From a virus, in IMG/VR virus record IMGVR_UViG_3300029305_001264: DNA of 40,650 nt, one strand, 5' to 3'. This document shows, piece after piece, positions 8,539 through 39,954 of the stretch (the first letter of the stretch is position 1; every line of letters starts with the position of its first letter). Made by a program: the position numbers and the translations under genes. The notes under the pieces are model-generated. The model made no database searches. It was not told where the DNA came from and worked only from the letters and a program-made list of their open reading frames with translations.

Positions 8539-8577
8539 GTCCGGGGATAGAGAACAGCCTAGGAAATCTAGTAAGTT
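8539..8577 (+). promoter_or_regulatory. Box-promoter copy 1: GTCCGGGGATAGAGAA-N17-TAAGTT
   Basis: 16-nt box at 8539-8554 and hexamer at 8572-8577. Confidence 0.45.
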
Positions 8578-9002
8578 GGTACGCAAGCCCCTATTGATCG
8601 CCTGTGAAATTGAGTTACCCGGGGACAGCAAGATGCCCGCCCAGATCGCCTTCCGGACGGACACCTCTGCTGATTTGTGTTCACTGACCGCAGAATGCCA
8701 CCATCACTGCAGTGGTAAAGGGATGCGAGCCCGAATGGCATTCGACTGAGGCGACAGTTGCTTAGATCAGCCCTCCCGCTTACGGAGCGACCAGACTGTC
8801 AGTTGTGCCTGACAGCGACTGCGGGAGAGTTGCCGAACACACAGATCGGGATAGGCATTAAGAAATCGATAAGGAGGTCCTTAAAGAGTTTCATGATGCA
8901 TCACCCCTTTCCGTGATAATCCCAGGCCTGCCCGGGTGATTCAATTTTACAGGCGAAGGAAAACAGCATCAAGTCCAGAATAACGGACAGAAGGAGGCCA
9001 AT

Positions 9003-9245
9003 ATGGCAAATGAAAAAATTACCGATGAGCAGGTGGAGCTGGAGATCCAGAGGCTTCAGGAATCGGAAGCGGTAAGGCTGGCGCGGCGGGAGATCGAGGT
9101 GCGGAAGCGGCGGCGGAAGTACCTCTACTATCTTCGGCAGATGGAGAAGAAGGGCAGGGCCCTGATGGAGGCCGGGGTTACCTGGGAGATGCTTCACGAT
9201 GAAAGCTATCTTGCTGAAATGCTGGAGGCGGCTGCGGAGGGGTGA
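9003..9245 (+). CDS. Hypothetical protein (80 aa), first convincing ORF of the rightward operon
   Basis: GAAGGAGG RBS. Charged helical sequence. Confidence 0.6.
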   Translation: MANEKITDEQVELEIQRLQESEAVRLARREIEVRKRRRKYLYYLRQMEKKGRALMEAGVTWEMLHDESYLAEMLEAAAEG

Positions 9246-9480
9246 TGCCCTCCCAGGGGAAGCGCATTTGATATGGAGCGGTAGGTAACGAGGAAGTAGT
9301 GAGCCGGAAGGCCGTTCAAGTCGGCCTCGCTCCAAACTGTTGCCGGATGGGCCATCCACCTGAGGTGACAGATACGATGTATGTGTCCTCCCTGATCGAT
9401 TCTCTTTGCAAAATACGAAGGGCGGCGGATGGGCCGCCCGGGGGGATAAGGAAATTTGGTTTTTGGTTTCGTCAGAGTTT

Positions 9481-9510
9481 CGGGCGGGTCATGACCCGCC
9501 CCTACAAAGG
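9481..9510 (+). repeat. GC palindrome element E, copy 1
   Basis: CGGGCGGGTCATGACCCGCCCCTACAAAGG. Its core GGGCGGGTCATGACCCGCCC is a perfect palindrome. Near-identical copy at 16651-16680. Confidence 0.8.
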
Positions 9511-9660: not shown

Positions 9661-9669
9661 CGGCAGTTG

Positions 9670-10505: not shown

Positions 10506-10804
10506 CCGGCGGCGAGGTCCACAAGGACCGGATGGCCCGATACCAGGCGGAGTATTACCGGAAGCATCGGGAGAAGAAACTGGAGCGGCAGCGGTCATAC
10601 TACCAGAAACACCGGGAGGAGCGGATCCGAAAGCAGAAGGAGTACAATGCCCGCCATAAAAAGGAAATATCCGCACGGAGGGCAGAGGCTTATGCCAAAG
10701 ACCCGGAAAAGCAGCGGCAGCGGAGCAAAGATTACTACTGGAAAAACCGGGAGAAGATCGCCCGGAAAAATGCTGAACGGAAGGCGGTGCGGTCGGATGG
10801 CTAA
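10502..10804 (+). CDS. Basic 15-residue-repeat protein, diverged paralogue (100 aa)
   Basis: ATG overlaps the upstream stop. Five degenerate units of the (Y)Y-x-K/N-x-R/K-E/D-K type: YYRKHREKK, YYQKHREER, YNARHKKEI, YAKDPEKQ, YYWKNREKI. Confidence 0.6.
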   Translation: MTGGEVHKDRMARYQAEYYRKHREKKLERQRSYYQKHREERIRKQKEYNARHKKEISARRAEAYAKDPEKQRQRSKDYYWKNREKIARKNAERKAVRSDG

Positions 10805-11309
10805 ATATACTCCGGAGGAACTGGATAAGGATTTCCGCCAGACCAAGGAGGAGATCATGGCCGGCCGGAAGCGGAGAGACGCCGAGTATCATGCCGCCTA
10901 CTATAAGGCCAACAAGGATAAGATCGCCGAGCGGCAGGCCGCCTACTATGAGGCCAACAAGGATAAGATCGCCGAGCGGAAGGCCGCCTACTATGAGGCC
11001 AACAAGGATAAGATCGCCGAGTATCAGGCCGCCTACCGGGAGGCCAACAAGGATAAGATCGCCGAGCGGCAGGCCGCCTACTATGAGGCCAACAAGGATA
11101 AGATCGCCGAGTATCAGGCCGCCTACCGGGAGGCCAACAAGGATAAGATCGCCGAGCGGCAGGCCGCCTACAGAGAGAAAAACCGGGATGCTTACAATGC
11201 GTATCATCGGGAATATCGGCGGAGGCTGCGGGAGCGGCGGAAGGCGGAGAAACTGGCAAATAGCCTTATGACCGGGGGATCGCCACTTTCTCTTCGCCCT
11301 TCGCGATGA
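10797..11309 (+). CDS. 15-residue tandem-repeat protein (170 aa)
   Basis: ATG 10797 overlaps the upstream gene end. Six near-perfect AAYYEANKDKIAE(R/Y)Q units. Confidence 0.65.
   Translation: MAKYTPEELDKDFRQTKEEIMAGRKRRDAEYHAAYYKANKDKIAERQAAYYEANKDKIAERKAAYYEANKDKIAEYQAAYREANKDKIAERQAAYYEANKDKIAEYQAAYREANKDKIAERQAAYREKNRDAYNAYHREYRRRLRERRKAEKLANSLMTGGSPLSLRPSR
10893..11162 (+). repeat. Tandem 45-bp repeat x6, with a 90-bp higher-order unit
   Basis: Units begin at 10893, 10938, 10983, 11028, 11073 and 11118. Several reading frames on both strands stay open across the array. Confidence 0.95.
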
Positions 11310-15576: not shown

Positions 15577-15810
15577 ATGTCCAGCGGGTCTTACTGGCAG
15601 CAGGAGGTGCAATGCCCGTTTTACCGCCAGGATGACGGACGGAGCCGGATCCACTGTGAGTGGATGATCGCAAACAGCACGGTGAGCATCAATTTTCAGA
15701 GGAGGCCGGACTTCCGGACACAGATGAAGACTTTCTGCTGCGATAAATACAAGAACTGTGAGATTTTCAGAATGATCATGGAAAACAAATATGAGGAGGA
15801 TATGGAATGA
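15577..15810 (+). CDS. Cys-rich hypothetical protein (77 aa)
   Basis: ATG 15577. Cys-containing segments QCPFYRQDD...IHCEW...FCCDKYKNC. Confidence 0.5.
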   Translation: MSSGSYWQQEVQCPFYRQDDGRSRIHCEWMIANSTVSINFQRRPDFRTQMKTFCCDKYKNCEIFRMIMENKYEEDME

Positions 15811-17366: not shown

Positions 17367-17762
17367 ATGAGAGATTATGAGCCGGACAATCTGGTGATGG
17401 ATTGCCGGAGGGCTATGGAGCTGGGGTATGGGGTCCATTACGGGCACTACAAGGCGGACCACCCCCACACAAGGGACACCTCCCTGGACCCGGAACCTGA
17501 GCACAAATATCCGGAGCGGGAGTGCAAAAACTGCGGGGAGCCATTCCGGCCCCACAGAGGAGACCAGATATACTGCTGCGAGGAGTGCAGAATTGAATAC
17601 AACCGGCTGCATACAATGAAAAACCCCAACAGGGCACGGCAAAAGTTTTGCAGAAGGTGCGGAAAACCCATTACCGATCCGAAGCAGCGGGTGTTTTGCG
17701 GCAAGGTGTGCCTCTACAGCTATGACCAGGAGCGGAGACACCGGAAGAAAAAGGAATCATGA
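17367..17762 (+). CDS. Double zinc-ribbon protein (131 aa), last gene before the late operon
   Basis: ATG 17367 after AAGGGAG. Cys pairs CKNCGEPF...YCCEEC and CRRCGKPI...FCGKVC. Confidence 0.6.
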   Translation: MRDYEPDNLVMDCRRAMELGYGVHYGHYKADHPHTRDTSLDPEPEHKYPERECKNCGEPFRPHRGDQIYCCEECRIEYNRLHTMKNPNRARQKFCRRCGKPITDPKQRVFCGKVCLYSYDQERRHRKKKES

Positions 17763-17763: not shown

Positions 17764-17789
17764 AGAGGGGGCTTCGGCCTCCTCTTTTT
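17764..17789 (+). terminator. Rho-independent terminator
   Basis: 9-bp stem agagggggc/gcctcctct with a TTCG loop, followed by TTTTT, 2 nt after the stop codon. Confidence 0.8.
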
Positions 17790-17921: not shown

Positions 17922-17960
17922 GTGCGGGGATAGAGAAGGCGGGGCGGGATTTGGTATGAT
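17922..17960 (+). promoter_or_regulatory. Box-promoter copy 2: GTGCGGGGATAGAGAA-N17-TATGAT (late operon)
   Basis: Box at 17922-17937. Extended -10 TGgTATGAT ends at 17960, 22 nt before the terS start. Confidence 0.55.
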
Positions 17961-17981
17961 GGTGGCAAAGGAGGGAGGCTT

Positions 17982-22765: not shown

Positions 22766-23085
22766 TCGAAGTTACCTACTGGAAGGATAGGCACCGGGTA
22801 AGAATCACCGGTCACGCGCACTCCGGGGAGGAAGGAAAGGATCTGGTATGCGCCGGGGCATCCACCCTGGCGGTGACGCTGGGGGCAAATGTCCGTTTCC
22901 TGAATGAGAAGGGCTATGCCAGGGATATCATCGTGGAGCTGGAGAAGGGAGATGCTCTGATCCAGTGCAGTCCCCTGCGGAAATACAGCCAGAGTGTGGG
23001 ACAGATCTTCCGCAGTGTTTGCGTGGGATTTGAGATGCTGGCGGCGCAGTATCCGGAGTATATTTCCTATGAAGTCCGGGGATAG
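22762..23085 (+). CDS. prp: Prp-family (ribosomal-processing) cysteine protease homologue
   Basis: 107 aa with the His/Cys dyad context ITGHAHSGEEGKDLVCAGAST, typical of Prp/YsxB proteins. Confidence 0.8.
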   Translation: MIEVTYWKDRHRVRITGHAHSGEEGKDLVCAGASTLAVTLGANVRFLNEKGYARDIIVELEKGDALIQCSPLRKYSQSVGQIFRSVCVGFEMLAAQYPEYISYEVRG

Positions 23086-23112
23086 AGAAACGCGTTTTGG
23101 ATTTGGTAAGAT
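23074..23112 (+). promoter_or_regulatory. Box-promoter copy 3: GTCCGGGGATAGAGAA-N17-TAAGAT (upstream of scaffold/capsid)
   Basis: The box at 23074-23089 overlaps the prp stop codon. Extended -10 TGgTAAGAT ends at 23112. Confidence 0.5.
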
Positions 23113-23175
23113 ATCTCCAGAACATGGGACTCGCCGCCCCTGTACCAAGCGGCAGATTAAATGTTCGGAGGCATA

Positions 23176-28877: not shown

Positions 28878-31800
28878 GTGGCTTTTTCCGTTAGCGATGC
28901 GCTTTCTGAGAGAAAAGACCGGAAAGCGGCACAGAGCGGCCAGAACAGTTCTGGGAACATGGGCGCAAATAATGCTGGCCAAAGCAGACAGACCATCACG
29001 GGCAGTTTCAGTGTGTCGGATGCGCTCCGGAACAGGCAGAACCGAAATGGGAATCAGGGCAGCAATGTATCTGATCCCACCAGTATCATCGATCGCTACA
29101 ACTCTTTGGTAGGACAGTATAATGACAGCATTGGCGGCGGGCCCAGCTTCGGTGTAAGTGCGGATGATGTTCTTGGCTCCCAGCGGGACATGAGAGCGGA
29201 ATCCGCAGCCATTTACAACGAGCTGGATTCCTACAGAGCATATCTGGGAGACGATGTTGTCGATGATATGCTGTCTTCCCTTGAGGGCATGGTGAGCGGC
29301 TGGAACGATATCGTTTCCAAAGCAAAATACTATTCCCAGTGGGAAAGCCCGGAAGACTATGAGCACTTTACATATCTGAGCGGAATGGACCTGGCGGCGC
29401 AGACGCAGGCTATTGAGGATCAGGAGGCGGCGATCGCTGACCTTAAAAAGGCACGGCCCGGAGGGATCCTGGGCATGGCGCTGCATGGGGCGGGGTACTA
29501 CTCCACGGACGATTACCTGGCGGCGAATGATGATATCCAGGCGGCGGAGGACCAGCTGGCTCAGATGCGGCAGGACCTCTACGATGCTACCCTGCTCCAG
29601 CAGGGACAGCAGGAAAGCGCCTGGGAGAAGCAGTACAGCGGCATGAGCTATGACCAGCTGATGCCCATCATCCAGGGCATGGAGGAAGGTGCGGAGCGGG
29701 ACTGGCTGGAGGGCTATGCGCCCAGCACCATGACTGCCCAGGATATGACGGAAAAACAGGCGGAGAACAATACCGAGATCTACTACCTGGATCAGTTTGA
29801 AAAGGAATGGGAAGCCATTCTGGAGCGGGAATTCATGCTGCAAAACAGCGGGGAATGGACCAAGGCACAGCAGGACCAGATCGATGCGGAAAAGGAAGCG
29901 CTGCTGCAGAGATACGGTGTGGATTCCCTGGAGGCTGCACAGAGCCGCAGAGAGACCCTGATGGCTGAAAACTGGGAGCTGGATAACCGGGCTGCCTATG
30001 ACGCAATCCCGGAAGCGGAAGGCTTCCAGGCCAACAGCGGGGTGCCTGAGGGATACACCACGGGTACCGGCAGCGCAGTGAGCCTCTTTGACTACATCAA
30101 CGATATCGAAGGTGCCAGAGAGCGGGAGACTCTGCGGATGGCCGGACACGGCGAATCGCCCTATGCCATCTATGACTTTATGGACGATCAGCAGATCGGC
30201 ATATTCAACTACCTCTACAATGTCCAGGGCATGGATGCGGCGGAGGATTACCTGCAGTACATCCAGTATGACCTGAATGCCAAACGGAACCAGAGCATCG
30301 CCGCAGGGGCGCAGACCATTGCCCAGGAAGCGGGCGCAGCGGCATCGCTCTTCTCTATCCCGGCGATGATGATGAGCGGTCTGGGGATCCTGGATGTGGG
30401 AATGCAGCACCTGGGACGGGCGGTGAGCGGCGGATATGCGCCCATCGACTATAACCGGGGCGCTATGGCCTACAATACCATCGGCAGTACCATCCGGCAG
30501 ACCAGAGCCCAGCACTACAACGAGAAGGGCACCATCAACCTGAACGAAAACGAGCATCCTATTCTGGCGAGGCTCCTGAACGGCAGAGGCTGGGGCGATG
30601 TATACCAGCTGGGTATGAGCCTGGCGGACAGCTATCTGGTGGGCAATATCGGCAAGGTGACGGGTCTGGGCGGCAAAGCAACGCTGCTCCTCAGCGGAAG
30701 CGCAGCTACCCAGGGTGTGCTGGATGCGGTGGAGAGCGGTGCCAGTGATGAGCAGGCGCTGCTTATCGGTATCCTGAACGGCGCGGCAGAATACCTCTTT
30801 GAAAAATATGAACTGGATAATCTGCTGGGTCAGGACACCAGCTATCTGAAGGCCATCGCCAATCAGGCGCTGACGGAAGGCTTCGGCGAAGGCATGACTT
30901 CTGTGTCCAACGCACTGGTGGACTACCTGGTGATGGCGGAAAACAGCGGCCTGGAGCAGAAAGCCCGGGAATATATGCTGATGGGCTACAGCGAAAGCGA
31001 AGCCATGACCCAGGCTCTGCTGGACATCGCTGCGGATATCGGCTGGGATGTGATCGGCGGTATGGTCAGCGGTGCTGCCATGAGCGGCGGCTTCCAGGCT
31101 ACCCAGGCGGTGCTGACTCCGGCAGATGTTCGCTCCAACAGCAAGCGGCTGCGGGAGCTGGGCATGAGCCGGTTTGATGCGGACCAAAAAGCGGCGGAGC
31201 TGTATGACCTGGCCCAGGGCTATGGAGATGCTGCCGGGAACTTCCAGCGCAACTATGCTCCGGGGCAGGACACCGGGGAATATGCCCTGGAATTCCGGAC
31301 GGCCTACGAAATGGGCAAGGCGGGTGCTGACCGGCAGCGGCTGGGAAGCGACAGTTTCCGGGTGATGAGCCAGAGCCAGAGGGATATCGCCTATGACACC
31401 GGTGTGGAAGCCCGGAAGAAGGCTGCGGGCCGGGAAAAGACGGAGGTAAAAGCCACTCTGGAGGTGAGCGAAGACCAGAAAACCGTGCGAACCGACACCG
31501 GCAAGGAAGTGAAGATCGATGGTTTCGCATCCGTGGGCGATAAGGCTACTCTGAAAGTGGGCAGCGACACGGTGAAGATGACCGATGTGAGCTATGCCAG
31601 TGCGGAAGAAGCGGCGATGTATGAGACCGTGGCAACGGTGGCCGGGTCTGCATCCACAGCCAATGCCATGCTGGAGCAGCAGCGAAAGAGCGATGTTTCC
31701 CCCGTGGATTTTGCCAACGGACTCTGGGAAGCCTATGAGGCGGGCAGAATCGGCAGTGCGACCCGGGCGGAGCTTGGGCAGATGGAATTTGCCGGGAAGC

Positions 31801-34800
31801 TGCCGCTGGCGGTGCGGAACATCGCTTACAGCCGGGGCATTGACAGGGGCAGATATCAGGCCAATGCGGCGGAAGCAGTGCTGAAAGCCAAGGGCAAGCA
31901 GAACAAGGGCCAGCGGAAAGAAGGAAAGCTGCATTTCGACCGGAAGGGCAGGACCTTCAGCGATATTCAGGAGACCGGTCTGGCGGCGATGGAGAGCTTC
32001 AGCAAGGCGCTGGGCATCCAGGTGTATGTTTATGAGTCCTTCGTGAAAAACGGGGAGCGGGTCTATAAGAACGGCAATGGAGAGACCGTAAAGGCTCCCA
32101 ACGGCTTCTACGATCCGGAGACCGGAGCAATACACATCGACCTGAATGCCGGCAACTTCGGTCAGGGCACCATGCTGTTTACCCTGGCGCATGAGCTGAC
32201 CCACTACATCAAGCAGTGGAGCCCGGTGCGGTTCCGGGTGCTGACGGAAGCGGTCCTGAGAGCCTACAGCACCAAGGGCCAGAGCGTGAATGCGCTGGTG
32301 GAAAAGCAGATGGCAAAGGCCAAAGAGAGCGGCCGGAATCTGACACCGGAGCAGGCACTGGAAGAAGTAGTGGCGGACAGCATGGAGGCCATGCTGGTGG
32401 ACGGCAGCTTCGGAAAGGTGCTGGCGGACATCAAGGCCCGGGACAAAACGCTGTGGCAGAAGATCAAAGACTGGTTACTTGAAATTGCGGATAAGCTGAA
32501 AAAGGCTGCCGATGCATACCGGGGCATGAAACCTGACAGCGTGGAAGGCCGGATGGTCCGGGAGATGGATGGAGTCTTTGATGAGATCCAGAAGCTGTTT
32601 GCCGAGGGTCTGGTGGAGGCCAGTGAGAATTTTGCGGCTGCGGAAGGGCAAAAAAATACCACCCAGGAGGGTGGGGTGAAGTATTCGGACAAATATCTTG
32701 CCGCAGAAGTTGATCCCAATGTACTCAACATGGTCACGCAGGTCACATCTGGAAACTATTCCGACAACGATAAAGTTGAGCTTGGAAAAGTACCGGATGA
32801 TATCGCTGCGAAAATCAAAGAGATTACTGGTGTAGATCCTTCTGGTTTTCGTATTGTCATTGAGGCGAGGCAGATGCTTCATATCCTAAATGGCCATGGG
32901 TCAAACGGGGATGCTAACCGCTCGATGAAAGATCCGAATGATATTGCCAGGATCAAATATGTTATTTTTACTCCAGATGACATTCGTGGACCAGGCATGA
33001 CCAGAGCATATACGCATCAGCGAAAGGGAAAAGCAAGGCCTGCCCCCACCGTATTGTACGAAAAAAACATAGGCGAGAAATCGTACTATGTTGTGCAGGC
33101 CGTTCCTGACACAAAAGCAAAAACAGTATACATCGTTTCTGCTTTTATTGGCCCAAGTGGATACAAAAAAGAAGCCTCACAGCTCATCAATGCCTCAAAT
33201 GGCCCTGATGCAACGGCTAAACCCGGTTCTGTGGTGGCTTCTAAGAACAGTATACGAAAAGCTGAAGCAATTGTCAACCCCAAATCTGTGGAAGCCATGG
33301 ATCTGGAAGTAGACGAGAAGACGGAATCGGTAGCACCTACCGTTATGATGTCGGAGCGGACCTGGACGCAGTCTGAGTATGTGCAGGAGCGGGATATGGC
33401 TGCGCTGGCCATCAGCAAGGCAATCGGTGTAAGCATTCAGAAGGCAAAGGACTACATCGACAGCGTGAACAGCATCGCCAAGATGATCGCCGATGACCGG
33501 ACCAGGCTTGACTACTTCTCCAGTCCCGGAAGAAGCAGTTTTATCGGTAATGTGGAATACGGCGGCAGCTTTGATTTCTCTACACTTTGCAAGAAGCGGC
33601 GGCTGCTGACGGGCACCTTTACCGCTATCCAGAAAGCACTTCCCAATACGGCGCTGACGGCCAATGAGATCCTGGAGATCCGCAAGCGGATGCAGGATGC
33701 CGGTCTGGAGGTAAGCTGCGGGCTGTGCTATGTAGAAGGCAGCAGAGCCAATATGGGACAGTTTGCCAAGGAATTTCTGCGGCTGTACAAGCAGTATTAC
33801 CCGGATGGATGGCAGCCCAATATGGCGGATGTGAACACTCCCGAGGGAATCGAGTGGGTGCGGATCAATCACCCGGAGGTCTATGAACAGTATGAATACT
33901 TCTGGAACCACTACGGTACCCTGAAGCCCGGTGACAAGAATCTGTTTGCCAGCCAACAGAAGCCCAAGCTCTACCAGCTGCACACGGAGTACAAGGGGGA
34001 GATCCTCCAGAAATTCCGGAACGATGACAATGTGGAGGAGAAAAACATCAACGGCGGCATCCGGCTGCAGAGTTTCTCCGACTTTGAAATCGTGCATCTG
34101 ATCGACACCATGCAGATCATTATGGATATGAGCCTGGTTGGGCTTGCCGGTCAGGCATACACAAAGGTGCCGGACTTCGCATGGGCGCTGGGCGATACCG
34201 GCCTGAAGATCAATCTGAGCCTGATCGCAAAAGGTGTGGACGAAAATGGAAACCTTATCTTTGACGATGTGGAAGGTATGCCCATTCAGGAGGCCATGCG
34301 GCTGCGGGAGCGGTATTCGGAGAATGTTGGTACGATCCTGGTAGCCTTCAATGATGCACAGCTGAAAGCGGCGATGGCTGACCCCAGAGTGGACTTCATC
34401 ATCCCCTTCCACAGAAGCCAGTGGAAAAAGAGTCAGTATGAGGCTATGGGCCTGCCGAAGAATACCAAGGACTACACCTACATGCAGAACGAAAAGTACA
34501 TCAAGCCCCAGTACCATGAGTACAGAGGCAGGATGGTACGGGATAAGGCCACCAACTACATGCCCAACGAATACTGGGACTTCAGCAAGAGCGGAACGGA
34601 AAATGCCAGGGCTTATCTGGAAATGTGCGCCAGGAACAATAAGCGGCCCAAGTTCTACAAGCTTCTGACGGACAACAAGGACGGAAGCTACTCCCTGAAG
34701 GAAGACGGAAGCACGGACGGCTATTGGAAGCTGCTGATCGATTTCAAGATGTATGACAATCAGGGCAATGGCAGTCCCCAGCGGCCGGTGACTCCGGAAT

Positions 34801-37800
34801 TCAATATGGAAGAAGCCAACCGGATGCTGAACGATTACCGGGGCGGCCACAGCAGTTTCCCGGTGGCACAGGGCATTGCTGATCAGTTTGTAGCGGAGTA
34901 CAAAGAGAGCCACAAGGGAAAGGTGCTTTCCGAGCGGGATACCATGGTGGCGGAGCTGGAGCGGCAGAATGCGGCGCTGCAGGAGGATGTGGAGGAGCTG
35001 AAAAAGCTTCTGGCGCTGCAGGGTCAGGTGACCGGCGGGCGTATCCCGAAGAAGAGCAGTGTGGAGGCGGCGGCAAAATGGCTGAAGGGCTATGCCGGTG
35101 CTACCATGGATGCCGATGACATGAAAGAGCTTGCCGGGATGCTGACGGAGTTTTACGGAGCGATCCTGAACGATGAGGAGCTGGCATGGGAATCTGTTAT
35201 GGAAAAGGCAGCGCCTATTGCCGACTTTATCCAGGCCAGGGTGAATGTGAAGCCTCAGATGAGCGAATATTCAAAAGATGTGCTGCGGGAGCTGAGAGGT
35301 CGGAAGATCAAGCTTTCTGACAGCCAGAAGGCGGAGGCGGCCAGAGCATACGGCAGCTACAATGAATACCGGAAGGCGGCTTTTGGCAGTGTGACACTTT
35401 CCAATGAGGGAATCCCTCTGGACAGCTTGTGGCAGGAGATGGCAAGCATCTTCCCCGGAACATTTGACGAAAATGTGACGGCGGGAGATCAGCCGGCGGC
35501 ACTGCTTGAGGTGATCCAGGGACTGCGGAGCACGGACCAGGCGGCCATGGAATATGAATACAACCGGGAGTTCATTCGGGCTGACCTGATCCGGGCAGTC
35601 TATGACAGTTTCTGGCGGGTGGATACCCTGAAGACCGTGGCAGACAAAAACCAGAAGAAGGTAAACGAGCTCAAAGCAAAGCACCGTCAGCAAATGGATA
35701 CGCTTCGGCAGGAGAAGAATAAGGCCATCCAGCGGGTGAAGAAGCAGTGGGCTGATGACATCGAAAAAGTGCGGCGGGAGATGCGCCAGGAGATCCGTGA
35801 CCGGGTGACCGCGACAGAAAAGCGGTACCAGGAATCCAGAGCCAAAGCGACTGAACAGCGGCGAACCACCGCCGGGAAGAAGCGGGTACGGAAGCTGGTG
35901 GCTGAGATCCGGAGCCTCTACGAACACGGCACGAAAGAGCGCAATGTCAAGAAGGGCATGCGGGACTTTGTGGAGCATGCGCTGGCGGCGGCAGAGGTCC
36001 TCTTTATGGACAATTACACGGACGAGGACATCGTCATGGCCGGTGTGAGCGTTAAGCTGGAGGACAGCCAGCGGCGGCTTCTGGATCGCACGCAGGAACT
36101 GATCCGGAAGCGGGATGATGTTTTCAAGGGCGGAAAAGATGTGCAGACTGCGGAAGCGGTGATCGCCGGTGATACGGCGGAACTGGATGCGCTGCAGGAG
36201 CGCTACGATGCGCTGCAGGAGCAGATAAACAAGAATCTGCGGCTGCTGGGACGGGTGCTGCGGGCAGAGCGGGCACGGCTTAATGAGACCACCATCACGG
36301 CGGTGCTGGAAGGTCTGGCGGAAGCTTACAAGCAGCTGGGAAGATCTGATGACAACTTTATCCGCAACGGAACCTATGAAACGGTCTACCAGGGACTGAT
36401 GCAGCTGATCGAGGATGTGCGTGGTACCACGGTAAAGGACATGACCAGCGACCAGCTGGAGGCGGTGGAGCGGGCATTCAAGGAGGTGCTGCACACGATC
36501 CGTGCGGCAAACAAGGCTTTCGTCCAGGGCAAGAAAGAGACCATTGCGGAGCTGGGTGAGGCTGCTGTGCGGGAAGTGAAGGCCGTGGGCGGTTTCCATG
36601 AGGACCGGAACACGGCGCTGGACCCGGTGAGAAGATTCTGGTGGAACAATCTGAAGCCCGTATACGCCATGAAGCGCATCGGTTCCAAGGTGCTGACGGA
36701 TGCCTACAACGCGATCCGGCGGGGTGAGGATACCTGGGCACGGGATATCGATGAGGCCAGGAGATTCTTCCAGGCGGCGGCAGACCGGTACGGCTATGAC
36801 CAGTGGGACCAGGAAAAGGGCTATGTGTTCAAAACTCCCAACGGACAGGAATTCACCCTGACCCTGGGCCAGATGATGAGCATCTATGCCTACTCCAAGC
36901 GGCAGAATGCCAAAGATCATCTGCGGATCGGCGGTATCGTATTTGACCCCAATCAGGAGGTATACCGGGACAATGCCAACGGCAAGCGGCGCAAGCGCTC
37001 CCTGAACGATGCGACCGCATACCAGATCGGTGAAGGCACGGTGGCTGCCATCCTGGAGCAGATGACGAAGGAGCAGATCGCTTTTGTAGACGAGATGCAG
37101 AAGTATCTCTCCGAGACCATGGGCGCCAAGGGCAACGAGGTCAGCAATGTGCTTTACGGTGTTGACCTCTTTGGGGAAGAAAATTACTTCCCGATGAAAT
37201 CGGCCCGACAGTATCTCTTTGAACAGAATCAGCCTGCGGGTGAGGTCAGTTTGAAGAACAGCGGTTTCACCAAGGCCATTCAGCCGGGAGCAAACAATCC
37301 CCTGATCCTGGGAAGCTTCATGGATGTGTGGAGCCAGCATGTGAACCGGATGAGCACTTACCACGGATTCGCACTGCCCATCGAGGACTTTAACCGGATC
37401 TTCAACTACCAGACCGGGCGGAATGAGGAAAAAGCTTCCGTTTCCGTAAAGGCAGCGATCCAGGGCGCATACTCCCCTGCCGCGATCCAGTACATCAGCC
37501 GGATGCTGACGGATATCAACGGCGGAGCCAGGACGGACCCGGCTGCCGGTGTGATCGGAAAGATGATGAGTCTTTTCAAGAAGGGCGCTGTTTTTGCAAG
37601 CCTTTCCGTGGCGATCCAGCAGCCCAGTGCCATCGGCAGAGCGGCGGCGCTCATCGACCCGAAATGGTTCAGCGGCAAGAAGGTGACCAAGCAGAACATC
37701 GAACAGGTCTGGGAGGAGTGCAAGGAATACGCTCCGGTCGCTCTGATCAAGGAGATGGGTTTCTTTGACACCAGTGTGGGCAAGTCCACCCAGGACTACA

Positions 37801-39902
37801 TCACGGCCCGGAATTACAAGGGCCTAAAAAACATCGTCAAGGGATTCTTTACAGATGCCAGCTACCGGGACGAGCAGATGGGTATGCTGCCGGCGCTTCT
37901 CGACAATATCACCTGGGCCAATATCTGGCAGGCGGTAAAAAGGGAGCAGCTGGATAAACATCCGGATGCGGACCCCGCAAGCGAGGAATTTCTGAAGCGG
38001 TGCGGTGAGCGGTTTACCGAGATCGTGACGGAGACCCAGGTATATGACAGTGTGCTGAGCCGGAGCGCCAATATGCGAAGCAAGGACACCGGCATGCAGA
38101 TGCTGACCGCATTTATGGCGGAACCGACCACCAGCATGAATATGCTCTCCAACGCAGTGGTCCAGGCCAGACGGGGAGACAAAAAAACGGCTGGCCGGGC
38201 GGTGGGCGCTGTTGTGGCGGCGCAGATCATCAACAGCATCCTGGTATCGCTGGTGTATGCGGCCCGGGATGACGATGAGGAGCAGAGCTATGCCGAAAAG
38301 TATCTGGAGGCCCTGGCGAACAATATATGGAACGATGTTTTCCTGATGGTACCGAATTCCATTCCCTTTATCAGCGATATTATGAGCATGCTCCAGGGCT
38401 ATGATGTGGAGCGCAGCGATATGGCGGTGATCTCCGACATGATCAATGCCATCCAGCAGCTGAGCAATGAGAAGAAGAAACCCTGGCAGAAGGTGGAGCT
38501 CTTTGTCGGGTCCCTGGCGCAGATTTTCGGCCTGCCGGTGAAGAACATTCTCCGGGATGTAAAGGCTATCTACAATGTGGCGGACGGTATGCTCTTCGGT
38601 GAGCGGTCCACGGCGGCGGGATTTGGATATGCTGTGAGAGAAGGCATCACCGGTGATGCGGTGAGCAATGCCCAGCAGCTGTACGATGCCCGGGTGAACG
38701 GGGACAAAGCCCACGAAGCCAGAGTGACGGCCCGGTACGAAAACCAGGAGAGTGCGGATGCGGCTGTTCGGAATGTGATCAAGAGAATGTTTATGGCGGG
38801 AGAGATCGACCGGGTGGAGGCTCAGCGGCAGCTGATGCTGTATGCAGGCTATGACAATGCGGTGGAGATCTATTGGCTGGTGGATGCATGGGTTTACGAA
38901 AAGGATACCGGAAGCTCTGACGGCTACGGAAAATACAATGACATCTACGCAGCTATGTTGGCCGGTGAAAGCATCGATGCGCTGATGACCGAATTTACGG
39001 ACCTTGGGTACCGGGAAGACGATGTGCTCAGCCAGATGAAAAAGGAAGTCGGCCGGTGGTATTATGACGATGAATCGGAGACCAGGATCGGCAGAGACCA
39101 GGCGGTGGATATGCTGGGACAGTATTTCGGCATGGATGAGGACGAGATCGCCGAGCAGATGCGCTCCTGGGATATGCGGATGGAGACCGGATTCAGCTAC
39201 TCTGAACTGAAGGGCGAATACATGGAGGGCAATGTATCCCGGGAGGAGGCCCTGCGGCTGCTCCAGGAATACGGCCTGCTCCACAGCACGGAGGCGGAAG
39301 ACCGGGTGGCTGACTGGGACTTTGAAGCGGAGCACGGATTCGGCTATGACGATATCCGGCATACCTATCAGGACGGCGAGATCACGGCGGCGGAGGCCAT
39401 CGATGTGATGATGGGTTTCGGCGGGAAAGACCGGGAGGATGCGGAGTATGCGATCCGGCTCTGGGATTTTGAGACCAAGAACGGATGGGCATATGAGAGC
39501 AGAGTATCGCTCTATAAGCAGGGCCGTATCTCCGGAGATGTGCTGCAGAAGGCTCTGATCGAATTCGGCGGGTATACCCCGGAGGATGCACGGACCCAGG
39601 TCGAGGTATATGACTGGGAGATGGAGGGCATCAAGAATGTGACCATCACCCGGGTGGAGCGGTACCATGAGTTTGCGGAGCCTGCGGGCATCAGCAAGGC
39701 GGTATACATGGATGTACAGCGGTACAGCGCTGACACCAAAAATGATGTGGATCCGGATACCGGCAAGTCCATCAACTACTCCGCTATGAAAAAGGTGATG
39801 GCATACATCGACAGCCTTCCCCTGACGGAAAAGCAGAAAGATGCTATGGCATACAGCCTGGGATGGAGCAAGAAAAACATCGAGAAGTACAAGCCCTGGT
39901 AA
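28878..39902 (+). CDS. Giant multidomain (polyvalent-type) virion protein, 3,674 aa: zincin HExxH metallopeptidase-like module, PBECR-like nuclease module, hydrophobic segments, coiled coils, C-terminal repeats
   Basis: 11,025-nt uninterrupted frame. GTG start 7 nt after AAGGGGG. HELTH at 32190-32204. The HILNGHG...YYVVQAV...VSAF pattern lies at about 32700-33170. Confidence 0.85.
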   Translation: MAFSVSDALSERKDRKAAQSGQNSSGNMGANNAGQSRQTITGSFSVSDALRNRQNRNGNQGSNVSDPTSIIDRYNSLVGQYNDSIGGGPSFGVSADDVLGSQRDMRAESAAIYNELDSYRAYLGDDVVDDMLSSLEGMVSGWNDIVSKAKYYSQWESPEDYEHFTYLSGMDLAAQTQAIEDQEAAIADLKKARPGGILGMALHGAGYYSTDDYLAANDDIQAAEDQLAQMRQDLYDATLLQQGQQESAWEKQYSGMSYDQLMPIIQGMEEGAERDWLEGYAPSTMTAQDMTEKQAENNTEIYYLDQFEKEWEAILEREFMLQNSGEWTKAQQDQIDAEKEALLQRYGVDSLEAAQSRRETLMAENWELDNRAAYDAIPEAEGFQANSGVPEGYTTGTGSAVSLFDYINDIEGARERETLRMAGHGESPYAIYDFMDDQQIGIFNYLYNVQGMDAAEDYLQYIQYDLNAKRNQSIAAGAQTIAQEAGAAASLFSIPAMMMSGLGILDVGMQHLGRAVSGGYAPIDYNRGAMAYNTIGSTIRQTRAQHYNEKGTINLNENEHPILARLLNGRGWGDVYQLGMSLADSYLVGNIGKVTGLGGKATLLLSGSAATQGVLDAVESGASDEQALLIGILNGAAEYLFEKYELDNLLGQDTSYLKAIANQALTEGFGEGMTSVSNALVDYLVMAENSGLEQKAREYMLMGYSESEAMTQALLDIAADIGWDVIGGMVSGAAMSGGFQATQAVLTPADVRSNSKRLRELGMSRFDADQKAAELYDLAQGYGDAAGNFQRNYAPGQDTGEYALEFRTAYEMGKAGADRQRLGSDSFRVMSQSQRDIAYDTGVEARKKAAGREKTEVKATLEVSEDQKTVRTDTGKEVKIDGFASVGDKATLKVGSDTVKMTDVSYASAEEAAMYETVATVAGSASTANAMLEQQRKSDVSPVDFANGLWEAYEAGRIGSATRAELGQMEFAGKLPLAVRNIAYSRGIDRGRYQANAAEAVLKAKGKQNKGQRKEGKLHFDRKGRTFSDIQETGLAAMESFSKALGIQVYVYESFVKNGERVYKNGNGETVKAPNGFYDPETGAIHIDLNAGNFGQGTMLFTLAHELTHYIKQWSPVRFRVLTEAVLRAYSTKGQSVNALVEKQMAKAKESGRNLTPEQALEEVVADSMEAMLVDGSFGKVLADIKARDKTLWQKIKDWLLEIADKLKKAADAYRGMKPDSVEGRMVREMDGVFDEIQKLFAEGLVEASENFAAAEGQKNTTQEGGVKYSDKYLAAEVDPNVLNMVTQVTSGNYSDNDKVELGKVPDDIAAKIKEITGVDPSGFRIVIEARQMLHILNGHGSNGDANRSMKDPNDIARIKYVIFTPDDIRGPGMTRAYTHQRKGKARPAPTVLYEKNIGEKSYYVVQAVPDTKAKTVYIVSAFIGPSGYKKEASQLINASNGPDATAKPGSVVASKNSIRKAEAIVNPKSVEAMDLEVDEKTESVAPTVMMSERTWTQSEYVQERDMAALAISKAIGVSIQKAKDYIDSVNSIAKMIADDRTRLDYFSSPGRSSFIGNVEYGGSFDFSTLCKKRRLLTGTFTAIQKALPNTALTANEILEIRKRMQDAGLEVSCGLCYVEGSRANMGQFAKEFLRLYKQYYPDGWQPNMADVNTPEGIEWVRINHPEVYEQYEYFWNHYGTLKPGDKNLFASQQKPKLYQLHTEYKGEILQKFRNDDNVEEKNINGGIRLQSFSDFEIVHLIDTMQIIMDMSLVGLAGQAYTKVPDFAWALGDTGLKINLSLIAKGVDENGNLIFDDVEGMPIQEAMRLRERYSENVGTILVAFNDAQLKAAMADPRVDFIIPFHRSQWKKSQYEAMGLPKNTKDYTYMQNEKYIKPQYHEYRGRMVRDKATNYMPNEYWDFSKSGTENARAYLEMCARNNKRPKFYKLLTDNKDGSYSLKEDGSTDGYWKLLIDFKMYDNQGNGSPQRPVTPEFNMEEANRMLNDYRGGHSSFPVAQGIADQFVAEYKESHKGKVLSERDTMVAELERQNAALQEDVEELKKLLALQGQVTGGRIPKKSSVEAAAKWLKGYAGATMDADDMKELAGMLTEFYGAILNDEELAWESVMEKAAPIADFIQARVNVKPQMSEYSKDVLRELRGRKIKLSDSQKAEAARAYGSYNEYRKAAFGSVTLSNEGIPLDSLWQEMASIFPGTFDENVTAGDQPAALLEVIQGLRSTDQAAMEYEYNREFIRADLIRAVYDSFWRVDTLKTVADKNQKKVNELKAKHRQQMDTLRQEKNKAIQRVKKQWADDIEKVRREMRQEIRDRVTATEKRYQESRAKATEQRRTTAGKKRVRKLVAEIRSLYEHGTKERNVKKGMRDFVEHALAAAEVLFMDNYTDEDIVMAGVSVKLEDSQRRLLDRTQELIRKRDDVFKGGKDVQTAEAVIAGDTAELDALQERYDALQEQINKNLRLLGRVLRAERARLNETTITAVLEGLAEAYKQLGRSDDNFIRNGTYETVYQGLMQLIEDVRGTTVKDMTSDQLEAVERAFKEVLHTIRAANKAFVQGKKETIAELGEAAVREVKAVGGFHEDRNTALDPVRRFWWNNLKPVYAMKRIGSKVLTDAYNAIRRGEDTWARDIDEARRFFQAAADRYGYDQWDQEKGYVFKTPNGQEFTLTLGQMMSIYAYSKRQNAKDHLRIGGIVFDPNQEVYRDNANGKRRKRSLNDATAYQIGEGTVAAILEQMTKEQIAFVDEMQKYLSETMGAKGNEVSNVLYGVDLFGEENYFPMKSARQYLFEQNQPAGEVSLKNSGFTKAIQPGANNPLILGSFMDVWSQHVNRMSTYHGFALPIEDFNRIFNYQTGRNEEKASVSVKAAIQGAYSPAAIQYISRMLTDINGGARTDPAAGVIGKMMSLFKKGAVFASLSVAIQQPSAIGRAAALIDPKWFSGKKVTKQNIEQVWEECKEYAPVALIKEMGFFDTSVGKSTQDYITARNYKGLKNIVKGFFTDASYRDEQMGMLPALLDNITWANIWQAVKREQLDKHPDADPASEEFLKRCGERFTEIVTETQVYDSVLSRSANMRSKDTGMQMLTAFMAEPTTSMNMLSNAVVQARRGDKKTAGRAVGAVVAAQIINSILVSLVYAARDDDEEQSYAEKYLEALANNIWNDVFLMVPNSIPFISDIMSMLQGYDVERSDMAVISDMINAIQQLSNEKKKPWQKVELFVGSLAQIFGLPVKNILRDVKAIYNVADGMLFGERSTAAGFGYAVREGITGDAVSNAQQLYDARVNGDKAHEARVTARYENQESADAAVRNVIKRMFMAGEIDRVEAQRQLMLYAGYDNAVEIYWLVDAWVYEKDTGSSDGYGKYNDIYAAMLAGESIDALMTEFTDLGYREDDVLSQMKKEVGRWYYDDESETRIGRDQAVDMLGQYFGMDEDEIAEQMRSWDMRMETGFSYSELKGEYMEGNVSREEALRLLQEYGLLHSTEAEDRVADWDFEAEHGFGYDDIRHTYQDGEITAAEAIDVMMGFGGKDREDAEYAIRLWDFETKNGWAYESRVSLYKQGRISGDVLQKALIEFGGYTPEDARTQVEVYDWEMEGIKNVTITRVERYHEFAEPAGISKAVYMDVQRYSADTKNDVDPDTGKSINYSAMKKVMAYIDSLPLTEKQKDAMAYSLGWSKKNIEKYKPW

Positions 39903-39915
39903 GCCGGGGCGGGCG

Positions 39916-39954
39916 GTCCGGGGATAGAGAACCCCGGGCCGCTTCTGTTATGAT
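39916..39954 (+). promoter_or_regulatory. Box-promoter copy 4: GTCCGGGGATAGAGAA-N17-TATGAT (upstream of the fibre gene)
   Basis: Box at 39916-39931. Extended -10 TGtTATGAT ends at 39954, 29 nt before ATG 39983. Confidence 0.5.

What the first reader, a model, noticed from the sequence alone, without database searches (positions are those of the whole stretch)
8539..39954. Four copies of a 16-nt box placed exactly 17 nt upstream of a -10 hexamer: a phage-specific promoter class
**Alignment, all on the + strand.**
- 8539: GTCCGGGGATAGAGAA-cagcctaggaaatctag-TAAGTT
- 17922: GTGCGGGGATAGAGAA-ggcggggcgggatttgg-TATGAT
- 23074: GTCCGGGGATAGAGAA-acgcgttttggatttgg-TAAGAT
- 39916: GTCCGGGGATAGAGAA-ccccgggccgcttctgt-TATGAT

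**Observations.**
- The spacer is 17 nt in every copy.
- Three copies have an extended -10 TGn.
- A 16-mer recurring four times in 40 kb with fixed spacing to a -10 is not expected by chance.
- The box sits where a -35 element would be. TAGAGA matches TTGACA at 4 of 6 positions with 18-nt spacing, and GTCCGGGG extends further upstream.

**Positions.**
- Copy 2 lies just before terS.
- Copy 3 overlaps the prp stop, just before the scaffold and capsid genes.
- Copy 4 lies just before the fibre gene.
- Copy 1 lies 60 nt downstream of the early promoter, at the head of an ORF-free region.

**Inference.** This looks like a late or middle promoter class that needs a phage factor. Candidates are the 77-aa sigma region-4-only protein (3108-3341) and the double zinc-ribbon protein (17367-17762).
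Basis: seen in the sequence. Interest (0 to 1): 0.75.

Follow-up and report, generated by a model that had tools for sequence, protein, structure and literature searches.

The report
Phage late-promoter box replacing the -35
A gut-bacterium phage carries four copies of a 16-base box placed exactly where the -35 promoter element should be. Related phages keep the same arrangement in front of their packaging, head and fibre genes, so it is most likely a phage-specific late-promoter class whose reader protein is still unknown.

Summary
**Observation:** confirmed. GTCCGGGGATAGAGAA occurs four times, always on the + strand (one copy with one mismatch). Each copy lies 17 nt upstream of a TAnnnT hexamer, and three hexamers have an extended -10 TGn.

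**Context:** the window is a complete circular 40.5-kb temperate phage with a P22-type portal. Its relatives sit in Oscillospiraceae genomes assembled from metagenomes.

**Conservation:**
- More than 20 relatives (59-82% terminase identity) keep the arrangement GGGWTAGARAA-N17-TAnnAT.
- It sits at the same places: before terS, across the Prp stop codon before the scaffold gene, and before the fibre gene.
- Spacers are unrelated between copies.
- The upstream half of the box differs between phages.
- Motif hits are 43:7 and 24:2 in favour of the gene strand.

**Early promoters:** the phage's own early promoters are canonical TTGACA-17-TAnnAT, so the box defines a separate class. It most likely marks factor-dependent promoters read by the host housekeeping sigma, σA.

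neither is supported.
- The 77-aa HTH protein belongs to a portable post-holin module that also occurs in box-less siphovirus-like (long-tailed) phages.
- The zinc-ribbon protein is missing from relatives that have the box.

**Better candidate (unproven):** an uncharacterised 4-Cys 77-aa protein (15577-15810), the only non-structural family found in all box-bearing relatives.

**Extras:** copy 1 heads a conserved ~360-nt structured RNA, and copy 4 overlaps a terminator hairpin.

The parts
8539..8577 (+). Copy 1: box GTCCGGGGATAGAGAA (8539-8554), 17-nt spacer, weak -10 TAAGTT (8572-8577), no TG. Expected start near 8584. It lies downstream of the early promoter and operators and heads the structured leader RNA.
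   Evidence: An equivalent copy is conserved in L180 (GTGCGGGGGTAGAGAC-17-TAAGGT) and L182 (GCCTGGGATAGCGAA-17-TATAAA).
17922..17960 (+). Copy 2: box GTGCGGGGATAGAGAA, 17-nt spacer, TGgTATGAT. Expected start near 17967. The RBS AAGGAGGGAGG and the terS GTG at 17982 follow.
   Evidence: Syntenic copies lie before terS in L010, L013, L050, L058, L159, L098, L097, L151, L177, L188, L194, L204, L205 and L220.
23074..23112 (+). Copy 3: box GTCCGGGGATAGAGAA containing the Prp stop codon (TAG 23083-23085), 17-nt spacer, TGgTAAGAT. Expected start near 23119. It reads into the scaffold and capsid genes.
   Evidence: Syntenic copies lie between Prp and scaffold in L008, L016, L030, L037, L097, L098, L159, L177, L188, L194 and L204. 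L014 has lost the promoter at this site.
39916..39954 (+). Copy 4: box GTCCGGGGATAGAGAA, 17-nt spacer, TGtTATGAT. Expected start near 39961. It reads into the fibre gene, four genes of unknown function (257, 96, 143 and 91 aa), the endolysin, the holin and the 77-aa HTH gene, wrapping to window 1-3341.
   Evidence: Syntenic copies lie before the fibre gene in L180 and L182.
39909..39948 (+). Hairpin plus T-rich tail that overlaps copy 4, forming a terminator-promoter composite. The 5' arm includes the upstream half of the box, the loop is AUAGAGAA, and the 3' arm is the first part of the spacer.
   Evidence: free energy -34.6 kcal/mol, z -3.1. The equivalents in L180 (z -6.6) and L182 (z -4.4) have co-varying arms.
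17767..17783 (+). Intrinsic terminator closing the early/middle region, about 140 nt upstream of copy 2.
   Evidence: The same terminator-then-box order is seen in L010, L013, L050, L058 and L177.
8598..8956 (+). Conserved structured RNA of about 360 nt, closed by a 26-bp long-range stem (8598-8623 with 8931-8956). It lies immediately downstream of the copy 1 start site and upstream of the first early ORF (9003).
   Evidence: MFE -158 kcal/mol, z -6.9; inverted repeat I1; window vs L180: 123 pairs, 3 compensatory, 5 wobble-compatible, 0 broken. No Rfam family matches.
8390..8480 (.). Divergent canonical σA promoters of the lysis-lysogeny switch: TTGACA-17-TACAAT on the - strand and TTGACA-17-TGaTAATAT on the + strand. 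Four GTTSACAACAC operator copies lie at 8411-8519.
   Evidence: They show that ordinary -35 elements are used elsewhere in this genome.
15577..15810 (+). g88: a 77-aa protein of an uncharacterised 4-Cys family (CPFY..CEG..FC..C). It is the best, but unproven, candidate for the factor that reads the box.
   Evidence: (122 of 162 terminase loci, usually just upstream of terS), (more than 1,157 members, no Pfam family, no name; the only non-structural family in 10 of 10 box-bearing loci). The AF2 model is of low confidence and gives no fold match.
3108..3341 (+).
17367..17762 (+).
   Evidence: Its patchy distribution is shown.

Best explanation
**What the sites are.** The four sites are promoters of one phage-specific class. 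RNA polymerase uses a housekeeping-type -10 element, usually with the extended TG. The normal -35 hexamer is replaced by an asymmetric recognition element:
- The core is GGGWTAGARAA, ending 17 nt from the -10.
- In this phage the core is extended upstream to the 16-mer GTSCGGGGATAGAGAA.

**How they are read (inferred).** A protein made after induction reads the box and recruits or retargets host σA-RNA polymerase. This would be a class II-type activator or a factor that remodels sigma region 4. It is probably phage-encoded and reaches back as far as about -51.

**What this switches on.** Three morphogenesis and lysis transcription units:
- terS to Prp;
- scaffold and capsid;
- fibre to lysis.

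A fourth copy, downstream of the repressor-controlled early promoter, transcribes a ~360-nt structured leader RNA and the early and replication genes. This could give a repressor-independent feed-forward loop.

**The factor.** It is not identified. The most likely candidate is the 4-Cys protein g88 (about 0.3). The 77-aa HTH protein and the zinc-ribbon protein are unlikely.

**Shown versus inferred.** Shown: sequence anatomy, conservation, synteny and strand bias. Inferred: transcription initiation, timing and the factor.
For: - **Non-random occurrence.** Four copies against 0.41 expected by chance, all on the + strand, each with 17 nt to TAnnnT.
- **Promoter-like placement.** Each of copies 2-4 is followed within 6-50 nt by an RBS and a start codon. 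The same -10 / 6-8 nt / GGAGG / ATG layout is seen in L050, L058 and L159.
- **Conserved architecture in relatives.**
  - About 30 sites in more than 20 relatives keep GGGWTAGARAA-N17-TAnnAT with a T-rich/TG segment before the -10, while the rest of the spacer is unrelated.
  - Position-weight-matrix scans give 43 hits on the + strand against 7 on the - strand, and 24 against 2.
  - The sites are syntenic: after a terminator before terS, across the Prp stop codon, and before the fibre gene.
- **A specific reader.** Within a phage the copies share 12-16 nt; between phages the upstream half differs:
  - window: GTCCGGGG;
  - L182: GCCTGG;
  - L159: AAGCATG;
  - L097: GGCGGTGG.

  This points to a cognate, diverging reader.
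- **A separate class from the early promoters.** The early promoters in this genome are canonical TTGACA-17.
- **No known regulator in the window.** No sigma, RinA/ArpU/Ltr, MotA or AsiA-type protein is detected by Pfam, PHROGs or NCBIfam.
- **g88.**
  - It is the only non-structural family present in all ten box-bearing loci that have long upstream flanks.
  - In many relatives it lies directly upstream of the terS promoter, the classic position of late activators.
Against: - **No transcript data.** No transcript 5' ends or expression data exist for this phage.
- **σA might act alone.** TAGAGA matches TTGACA at 4 of 6 positions with an 18-nt spacer, and three copies have TGn. Weak factor-independent σA initiation therefore cannot be excluded.
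- **Blocks without phage early genes.**
  - L114, L118, L119 and L124 carry GGTGGGATAGAAA-17-TATnAT at the head of a terS-to-tail block.
  - That block is flanked upstream by host genes, and no g88 lies within 10 kb.
  - A host-encoded or trans-acting reader is therefore possible.
- **Weaknesses of g88 as the factor.**
  - It is not basic (pI 5.8).
  - It has no recognisable DNA-binding fold (pLDDT 57-64; no Foldseek hit).
  - It sits inside the late operon in L097 and in the L019 group.
  - It also occurs in a large sister clade whose terS promoter looks different (GGGGTGAAAAG).
  - Five of the ten loci counted (L177, L188, L194, L204, L220) were fetched by searching with g88 itself, so only five of them test the association independently.
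  - In most terminase-centred loci g88 is simply common (75%), so the association is not statistically discriminating.
Confidence: 0.65

Rival explanations
1. The sites are promoters read by host RNA polymerase without any phage factor. Either σA alone uses the extended -10 plus a weak -35 (TAGAGA at 18 nt), or a host alternative sigma or host activator conserved in Oscillospiraceae recognises GGGWTAGARAA. Timing would then be set by host physiology, for example the SOS response.
For: - The core motif is conserved across phages whose non-structural genes are almost entirely different.
- L114, L118, L119 and L124 have the box at the head of a structural block that abuts host genes, with no early phage genes or g88 within 10 kb.
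- In L114, L119 and L124 the box core forms one arm of a palindrome with a LexA-like GAAC-N4-GTTC core. This suggests direct SOS control without a phage activator.
- The -10 and TG elements are housekeeping-like.
Against: - The upstream half of the box is phage-specific, yet it is kept identical or nearly so among copies within a phage. A single host factor would not select for that.
- The strictly conserved non-consensus -35 region, together with canonical TTGACA early promoters in the same genome, argues against plain σA recognition.
- No known Firmicute alternative-sigma consensus fits a TATGAT-type -10. This rests on my own knowledge of the sigma E, F, G, H, K and ECF consensus sequences and was not tested.
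Confidence: 0.17
2. One reading: the box is read by the 77-aa GerE/LuxR-type HTH protein (3108-3341), or by the double zinc-ribbon protein (17367-17762).
For: - The 77-aa protein is a stand-alone LuxR/GerE-type HTH. B. subtilis GerE, of the same size and type, activates promoters from sites near -35 (my own knowledge).
- The 77-aa protein co-occurs with boxes in the window, L180 and L182.
- The zinc-ribbon gene lies immediately upstream of the terS promoter in the window and in L010.
Against: - The HTH gene is the last gene of the copy 4 operon, so it could not start late transcription.
- It always forms a module with g154-g113-DUF7841 after the holin. This holds in siphovirus-type L181 and L183 and in L251 and L252, where no box-plus-hexamer site is found.
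- Only 2 IMG/VR contigs carry the HTH family.
- The zinc-ribbon protein matches HNH/NinG-type nucleases.
- The zinc-ribbon protein is absent from L177, L188 and L194, which have the terS and scaffold boxes and whose whole g88-to-terS interval is held.
Confidence: 0.08
3. The box is not a promoter element. It would instead be an RNA or DNA signal of another kind that happens to lie near AT-rich hexamers. Possibilities are a terminator or processing hairpin loop, a roadblock or repressor site, or a recombination or packaging site.
For: - Copy 4 and its homologues are embedded in a strong terminator-like hairpin.
- Copy 3 can form a weaker hairpin (z -2.3).
- Copy 1 has a poor -10 and lies inside the early transcription unit.
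- A core-only copy with no -10 exists on the - strand at 30363-30351.
Against: - Copies 1 and 2 form no hairpin (z +1.2 and +0.6).
- The exact 17-nt distance to TAnnnT is kept in about 30 sites although the spacers differ.
- TG/T-rich extended -10 features are present, an RBS and start codon follow immediately, and the sites have intergenic, post-terminator placement.
Confidence: 0.07

Closest known systems
Ltr super-family late activators (RinA, ArpU, LtrA/Sigma70_r4, LtrB/DUF1492, LtrC) and their terS promoters in temperate phages of Gram-positive bacteria (PMC3753634, PMC3152322)
   Same: - A phage-specific control region lies directly upstream of terS, at the junction between the early cluster and the late operon.
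- Each phage has its own cognate site.
[quoted passage not shown]
   Different: - No Ltr-family protein is detectable.
- Ltr proteins bind a DNA repeat region and drive the whole late cluster from one promoter (PMC3753634). Here a single asymmetric box sits at the -35 position.
- Here the box is repeated at three late sites plus one site in the early region.
- Ltr proteins are small and basic; g88 has a pI of 5.8.
Phage T4 middle promoters (MotA box plus sigma-70 -10, with AsiA-mediated sigma appropriation); from my own knowledge
   Same: - The host housekeeping -10 (often extended) is kept, while the -35 hexamer is replaced by a different phage-specific box at fixed distance.
- Many copies are dispersed in the genome.
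   Different: - The MotA box is (a/t)(a/t)(a/t)TGCTT(t/c)a, centred at -30. Here the box is GGGWTAGARAA, ending at -35 and reaching about -51.
- No MotA or AsiA homologue is found in Pfam or PHROGs.
- T4 is virulent and infects a Gram-negative host; this phage is temperate and infects Clostridia.
Bacillus phage SPO1 late promoters read by gp33/gp34 (-35 CGTTAGA, -10 GATATT); from memory, not checked
   Same: The GTTAGA core of several relatives (L098, L159, L177, L220: GGGTTAGARA) resembles the SPO1 late -35 element.
   Different: - The -10 here is housekeeping-like (TATGAT with TG), not GATATT.
- No sigma-like protein is encoded.
- The resemblance may be coincidental.
GerE of B. subtilis (74-aa LuxR-type HTH acting at sigma-K promoters); from my own knowledge
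   Same: The 77-aa protein has the same size and fold class. GerE shows that such a minimal HTH protein can activate transcription from sites abutting the -35.
   Different: - The GerE consensus (RWWTRGGYNNYY) is not present in the box.
- The 77-aa gene belongs to a portable post-holin module that does not track the box.

Membership tests
Canonical σA (sigma-70 housekeeping) promoter | -35 hexamer close to TTGACA, 16-18 nt upstream of the -10 | tested here: not met
   With a 17-nt spacer the hexamer is AGAGAA (2 of 6). With 18 nt it is TAGAGA (4 of 6). Only copies 2 and 4 reach the scanner's minimum of 9 of 12. The early promoters in the same genome score 10-11 of 12 with TTGACA.
Canonical σA (sigma-70 housekeeping) promoter | -10 hexamer TAnnnT, optionally with extended TGn | tested here: met
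   The hexamers are TAAGTT, TATGAT, TAAGAT and TATGAT. TGn is present in copies 2-4. The consensus across about 30 sites in relatives is ttTGn-TAnnAT.
Ltr (RinA/ArpU/LtrA-C)-controlled late promoter | [quoted passage not shown] | tested here: not met
   Pfam, PHROGs and NCBIfam scans of all ORFs between 9003 and 17762, and of 3108-3988, give no such hit.
Ltr (RinA/ArpU/LtrA-C)-controlled late promoter | The target is a DNA repeat region upstream of terS, and one promoter serves the whole late cluster (PMC3753634) | tested here: not met
   There is one asymmetric box per site and no direct or inverted repeat at copies 1-3. Three separate late sites exist.
Ltr (RinA/ArpU/LtrA-C)-controlled late promoter | The promoter lies immediately upstream of terS, after the early genes | tested here: met
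   Copy 2 at 17922-17960 lies between terminator 17767-17783 and terS at 17982.
T4-type MotA/AsiA middle promoter | MotA box TGCTT centred at -30, and MotA and AsiA proteins | tested here: not met
   The box sequence and position differ. There are no MotA or AsiA family hits.
Promoter of a phage-encoded alternative sigma factor | A phage gene with sigma-70 region 2 and region 4 domains, and a -10 distinct from the housekeeping one | tested here: not met
   There is no Sigma70_r2 or Sigma70_r4 hit in any window ORF scanned. The -10 is housekeeping-like.
GerE/LuxR stand-alone HTH activator (for the 77-aa protein) | PF00196 GerE domain | tested here: inconclusive
   The score is 22.6 bits against a cut-off of 23.5. 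Many homologues at 64-72% identity carry a precomputed PF00196 hit. The best PDB sequence hits are the C-terminal domains of RhlR and SdiA, at E = 0.03-0.5.
GerE/LuxR stand-alone HTH activator (for the 77-aa protein) | Regulator and target site co-occur across genomes | tested here: not met
   The protein is present in L181, L183, L251 and L252, where no box-plus-hexamer site is found in 14-20 kb. The family is rare in IMG/VR (2 contigs), whereas box-bearing terminase relatives are common.
Intrinsic terminator (for copy 4 only) | GC-rich hairpin followed by a T-run | tested here: met
   Window 39909-39948 folds at -34.6 kcal/mol and is followed by TTCTGTTAT. L182 has the stem followed by CTTTTGTTAT. 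The arms co-vary in three phages. The site overlaps the promoter rather than replacing it.

The most novel reading that the evidence does not exclude
- The uncharacterised 4-Cys protein family represented by g88 has more than 1,100 members and no Pfam family or name.
- It could be a new class of phage late-transcription factor in gut Clostridia.
- It would bind a metal or an Fe-S cluster and retarget host σA-RNA polymerase to GGGWTAGARAA boxes that replace the -35 element. This would be functionally analogous to sigma appropriation or to WhiB-like proteins.
- One of its promoters would additionally produce a new ~360-nt structured regulatory RNA at the head of the early operon.
Probability: 0.2. 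Interest if true: 0.75.

Novelty: new variant of a known kind. Interest (0 to 1): 0.5.

Why it matters
- **An unstudied phage lineage.**
  - Phages of uncultured Oscillospiraceae (Faecousia, Vescimonas, Limivicinus) are abundant in the human and animal gut, but nothing is known about how they are regulated.
  - A conserved late-promoter motif that can be predicted from sequence gives a direct handle for annotating transcription units.
  - It also helps in reading metatranscriptomes (are these prophages lytic?) and in building inducible parts for this clade.
- **A testable search for the regulator.**
  - No known late-regulator family is present.
  - The motif makes the search concrete, and a large unnamed 4-Cys family is the first suspect.
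- **Unusual design features worth an experiment.**
  - One copy heads a covariation-supported ~360-nt RNA.
  - Another copy is fused to a terminator.

Tried and rejected
- **Exact 16-mer in IMG/VR.** It gave 6 single hits, none with the spacer and hexamer arrangement, so these are chance matches. Box plus hexamer gave one true relative.
- **Rfam.** There were no hits at gathering threshold on the whole window, or at E < 1 on 8400-9100.
- **INPHARED phage records.** A near search found only a 1-kb capsid match, and a distant search with the leader RNA found nothing.
- **Scans that found nothing.**
  - g80 and the 77-aa HTH protein as single queries against IMG/VR.
  - The SMC-like ATPase against genome contigs.
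  - An exact 26-mer from the RNA stem against IMG/VR.
- **g88 structure.** Two AlphaFold runs with alignments of 19 and 81 sequences gave pLDDT 57 and 64. Foldseek against the PDB gave no hit with E < 3. A profile search against PDB sequences gave nothing meaningful.
- **PDB sequence searches.** Searches with g245, g137, g80, the 97-aa HTH protein and the 77-aa HTH protein found no sigma-like or activator-like relative.
- **Literature.** A search for late promoters in Faecalibacterium or related phages found nothing relevant.
- **Sporulation or ECF sigma promoters.** I considered this reading and rejected it. The -10 is housekeeping-type and the spacing does not fit. This rests on my own knowledge of the consensus sequences and was not tested.
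- **Box as a LexA half-site.** I considered this and rejected it for the window. Only copies 1 and 4 read AGAAC, and no GTTC follows 4 nt later.
- **Statistical link between g88 and the box.** The attempt was not informative, because g88 is present in 75% of all terminase loci anyway.
Full report
**1.
- The 16-mer GTCCGGGGATAGAGAA occurs at 8539, 23074 and 39916 exactly, and at 17922 with one mismatch. All copies are on the + strand.
- With up to three mismatches allowed, shuffled sequence gives 0.41 matches on average and never four.
- Each copy is followed by exactly 17 unrelated bases and then TAAGTT, TATGAT, TAAGAT or TATGAT. TGn precedes the hexamer in copies 2-4.
- A relaxed search for core plus hexamer finds no fifth promoter-like copy. 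It finds only a core-only match on the - strand inside the giant ORF, without a -10.

**2. What the window is.**
- Bases 40524-40650 repeat bases 1-127, and identical contigs come from several metagenomes. The window is therefore a complete circular genome of 40,523 bp.
- The gene content is that of a temperate phage:
  - an integrase and a CI-like repressor on the - strand;
  - divergent canonical promoters with four operator repeats;
  - an early and replication block (SMC-like ATPase, metallo-beta-lactamase-fold nuclease, replisome-organiser-like DUF6291);
  - terS, terL, a P22-type portal, a Prp protease, scaffold and capsid;
  - a 3674-aa polyvalent protein;
  - a BppU-type fibre, an M15 endolysin, a holin, and finally the 77-aa HTH gene followed by a terminator.
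- The terminase relatives found in genomes all lie in Oscillospiraceae or Clostridia genomes assembled from metagenomes: Faecousia, Vescimonas and Limivicinus.

**3. The arrangement is conserved in relatives at the same places.** I used loci fetched through terL, g88 and the 77-aa protein. The same layout recurs at each position:

| Position | Loci |
|---|---|
| Before terS, usually just after a terminator | L010, L013, L050, L058, L159, L098, L097, L151, L177, L188, L194, L204, L205, L220 |
| Across the Prp stop codon, before scaffold | L008, L016, L030, L037, L097, L098, L159, L177, L188, L194, L204 |
| Before the fibre gene | L180, L182 |
| In the early region | L180, L182 |

- Aligning about 30 sites on the box gives GGGWTAGARAA, 17 nt with a T-rich/TG end, then TAnnAT. 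The rest of the spacer is unconserved.
- Position-weight-matrix scans of about 2 Mb of loci give 43 hits on the gene strand against 7 on the other, and 24 against 2 in an independent set.
- Within a phage the copies share 12-16 nt. Between phages the upstream half differs: GTCCGGGG, GCCTGG, AAGCATG, GGCGGTGG or GTGCAGGG.
- Some relatives carry other boxes in the same two positions: L030 has GGGGCTGACATT and L011 has GGATGGT.
- L014 has lost the scaffold-site promoter through a deletion of about 25 nt.

**4. What the anatomy implies.**
- The -10 and the TG/T-rich segment are those of housekeeping σA promoters.
- The early promoters of the same genome use TTGACA, so the host polymerase recognises ordinary -35 elements.
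- The box is asymmetric, ends where a -35 hexamer would end, and reaches to about -51.
- Copies 2 and 4 are followed by an RBS and start codon within 15-30 nt. The same tight order of -10, RBS and ATG is seen in L050, L058 and L159.
- The simplest reading is a factor-dependent promoter. σA regions 2 and 3 would read the -10, and another protein would read the box and replace or assist σA region 4.
- This step is inferred. No transcript data are available.

**5. Who reads the box.** No sigma factor, Ltr/RinA/ArpU, MotA/AsiA or other known late regulator is detectable.

- It is a GerE/LuxR-type HTH protein.
- It is the last gene of the operon that copy 4 would drive.
- In every context examined it is the first gene of a portable module (HTH, g154, g113, DUF7841) directly after the holin.
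- That module also occurs in siphovirus-type phages and others where no box is seen.

*The second candidate, the double zinc ribbon:*
- It resembles HNH/NinG-type proteins.
- It is missing from L177, L188 and L194, which do have the boxes.

*g88 (15577-15810), a 77-aa protein with four invariant cysteines:*
- It is the only non-structural family common to all ten box-bearing loci with long flanks.
- It is found in 122 of 162 terminase loci, usually immediately upstream of terS and often directly before the box.
- Its family has more than 1,100 members with no Pfam family and no name.
- This placement matches the 'end of the early cluster' position of Ltr activators (PMC3753634).

*Why g88 remains only a candidate:*
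- It is not basic.
- Its predicted fold is of low confidence and matches nothing.
- It lies inside the late operon in some relatives.
- It also occurs in a sister clade with a different-looking terS promoter.
- Five of the ten loci were fetched by searching with g88 itself, so the 10-of-10 count is only partly independent.

*A host factor stays possible:*
- L114, L118, L119 and L124 carry the box at the head of a terS-led structural block.
- That block is flanked by host genes and has no g88 nearby.

I therefore rate 'phage factor-dependent promoter class' at about 0.65, and g88 as the factor at about 0.3.

**6. Copy 1 and copy 4 have extra features.**

*Copy 1:*
- It has the weakest -10 and lies downstream of the operators.
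- It is followed immediately by a region that folds far better than shuffles (z = -6.9), closed by a 26-bp long-range stem.
- L180 has the same box, the same spacing, a similarly weak hexamer (TAAGGT), and the same RNA at about 95% identity, while the flanks diverge.
- Among 123 predicted pairs, three change on both sides and five change on one side. All eight stay paired, some as G-U pairs that work only on the + strand.
- No Rfam family matches.
- L182 has a box at the equivalent place but a different leader.
- A box promoter here would transcribe the leader RNA and the early operon, including g88, independently of the repressor-controlled promoter. This suggests a feed-forward loop (inference).

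*Copy 4:*
- It sits in a strong hairpin followed by a T-rich run. The stem arms co-vary among three phages.
- The transcript of the giant gene would terminate in the same sequence that re-initiates the fibre-lysis operon.

**7. Comparison with known systems.**
- In function it most resembles two systems:
  - the Ltr-controlled terS promoters of Gram-positive temperate phages (PMC3753634, PMC3152322);
  - in promoter anatomy, T4 middle promoters, which combine a host -10 with a phage box in place of the -35 (my own knowledge).
- It fails the membership tests for both:
  - there is no Ltr, MotA or AsiA protein;
  - there is a single asymmetric box rather than a repeat region;
  - there are several dispersed promoters rather than one.
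- It is therefore best described as a new variant of a known kind: a factor-dependent phage late-promoter class in an unstudied phage lineage, with an unidentified and possibly new type of regulator.

**8. Caveats.**
- Everything about activity and timing is inferred from sequence.
- The motif scans were trained on sites found here, so the counts partly reflect that choice. The strand bias and synteny do not.
- Loci cover only 6-10 kb on either side of the query gene, so the absence of a gene from a relative is established only within those limits.

Noticed in passing
window 8598-8956 (+): A structured RNA of about 360 nt, closed by a 26-bp stem, lies between copy 1 and the first early ORF. 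Its folding z-score is -6.9. It is conserved in L180 with 3 compensatory and 5 wobble-compatible changes and no broken pair. It has no Rfam match and its function is unknown.
   Followed up: partly
window 23126-23156 (+); L008, L011, L014, L015: A hairpin in the 5' UTR of the scaffold gene (GCCGC...GCGGC), just upstream of the RBS, is conserved among relatives with compensatory changes (GTGGG...CCCAC in L008 and L015).
   Followed up: no
window 39909-39948 (+); L180 about 5205-5245; L182 about 2720-2760: Copy 4 is fused to an intrinsic-terminator-like hairpin. The upstream half of the box forms the 5' arm and ATAGAGAA forms the loop. The arms co-vary in three phages.
   Followed up: yes
window 30351-30363 (-): A fifth copy of the box core (CCGGGATAGAGAA) lies on the opposite strand inside the 3674-aa ORF. 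It has no -10 at 16-18 nt. It may be chance (about 0.02 expected for the 11-mer) or a bare binding site.
   Followed up: partly
window 15577-15810 (+): g88 belongs to a family of more than 1,100 proteins of about 75 aa with four invariant cysteines (CPFY..CEG..FC..C). The family has no Pfam family or name. It is found almost only in this phage lineage, usually next to terS.
   Followed up: partly
window 3108-4811 (+): The 77-aa HTH protein, g154, g113 and DUF7841 form a portable module placed after the holin and before the integrase. Otherwise unrelated phages share it (L181, L183, L251, L252), which suggests an accessory or lysogenic-conversion cassette.
   Followed up: partly
L114 3788, L119 2041, L124 5018, L118 9570: terS-terL-portal-capsid blocks are flanked upstream by host genes (BlaI/BlaR-like, DUF1273-like) and headed by GGTGGGATAGAAA-17-TATnAT. 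In three of them the box core is one arm of the palindrome ATAGAAAC-ATAT-GTTCTCTAT, which has a LexA-like GAAC-N4-GTTC core.
   Followed up: partly
window 10893-11171 (+): A tandem array of 6.2 copies of a 45-nt unit (89% matches) lies inside ORF 10647-11309. It could be a repeated peptide or replication-origin iterons. L091 differs in copy number.
   Followed up: no
window 8411-8519: Four copies of GTTSACAACAC lie around the divergent early promoters. They are presumably operators of the CI-like repressor encoded at 7991-8368 (-).
   Followed up: no
window 28878-39902 (+): A single 3674-aa ORF carries a PBECR3 nuclease-type domain. Its L182 homologue has MuF_C and ART-PolyVal domains. It is a polyvalent protein, presumably packaged in the virion.
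   Followed up: no
window 1-127 and 40524-40650: The two ends of the window are identical over 127 nt. This is an assembly overlap of a circular genome of 40,523 bp, and the fibre gene runs across the junction.
   Followed up: yes
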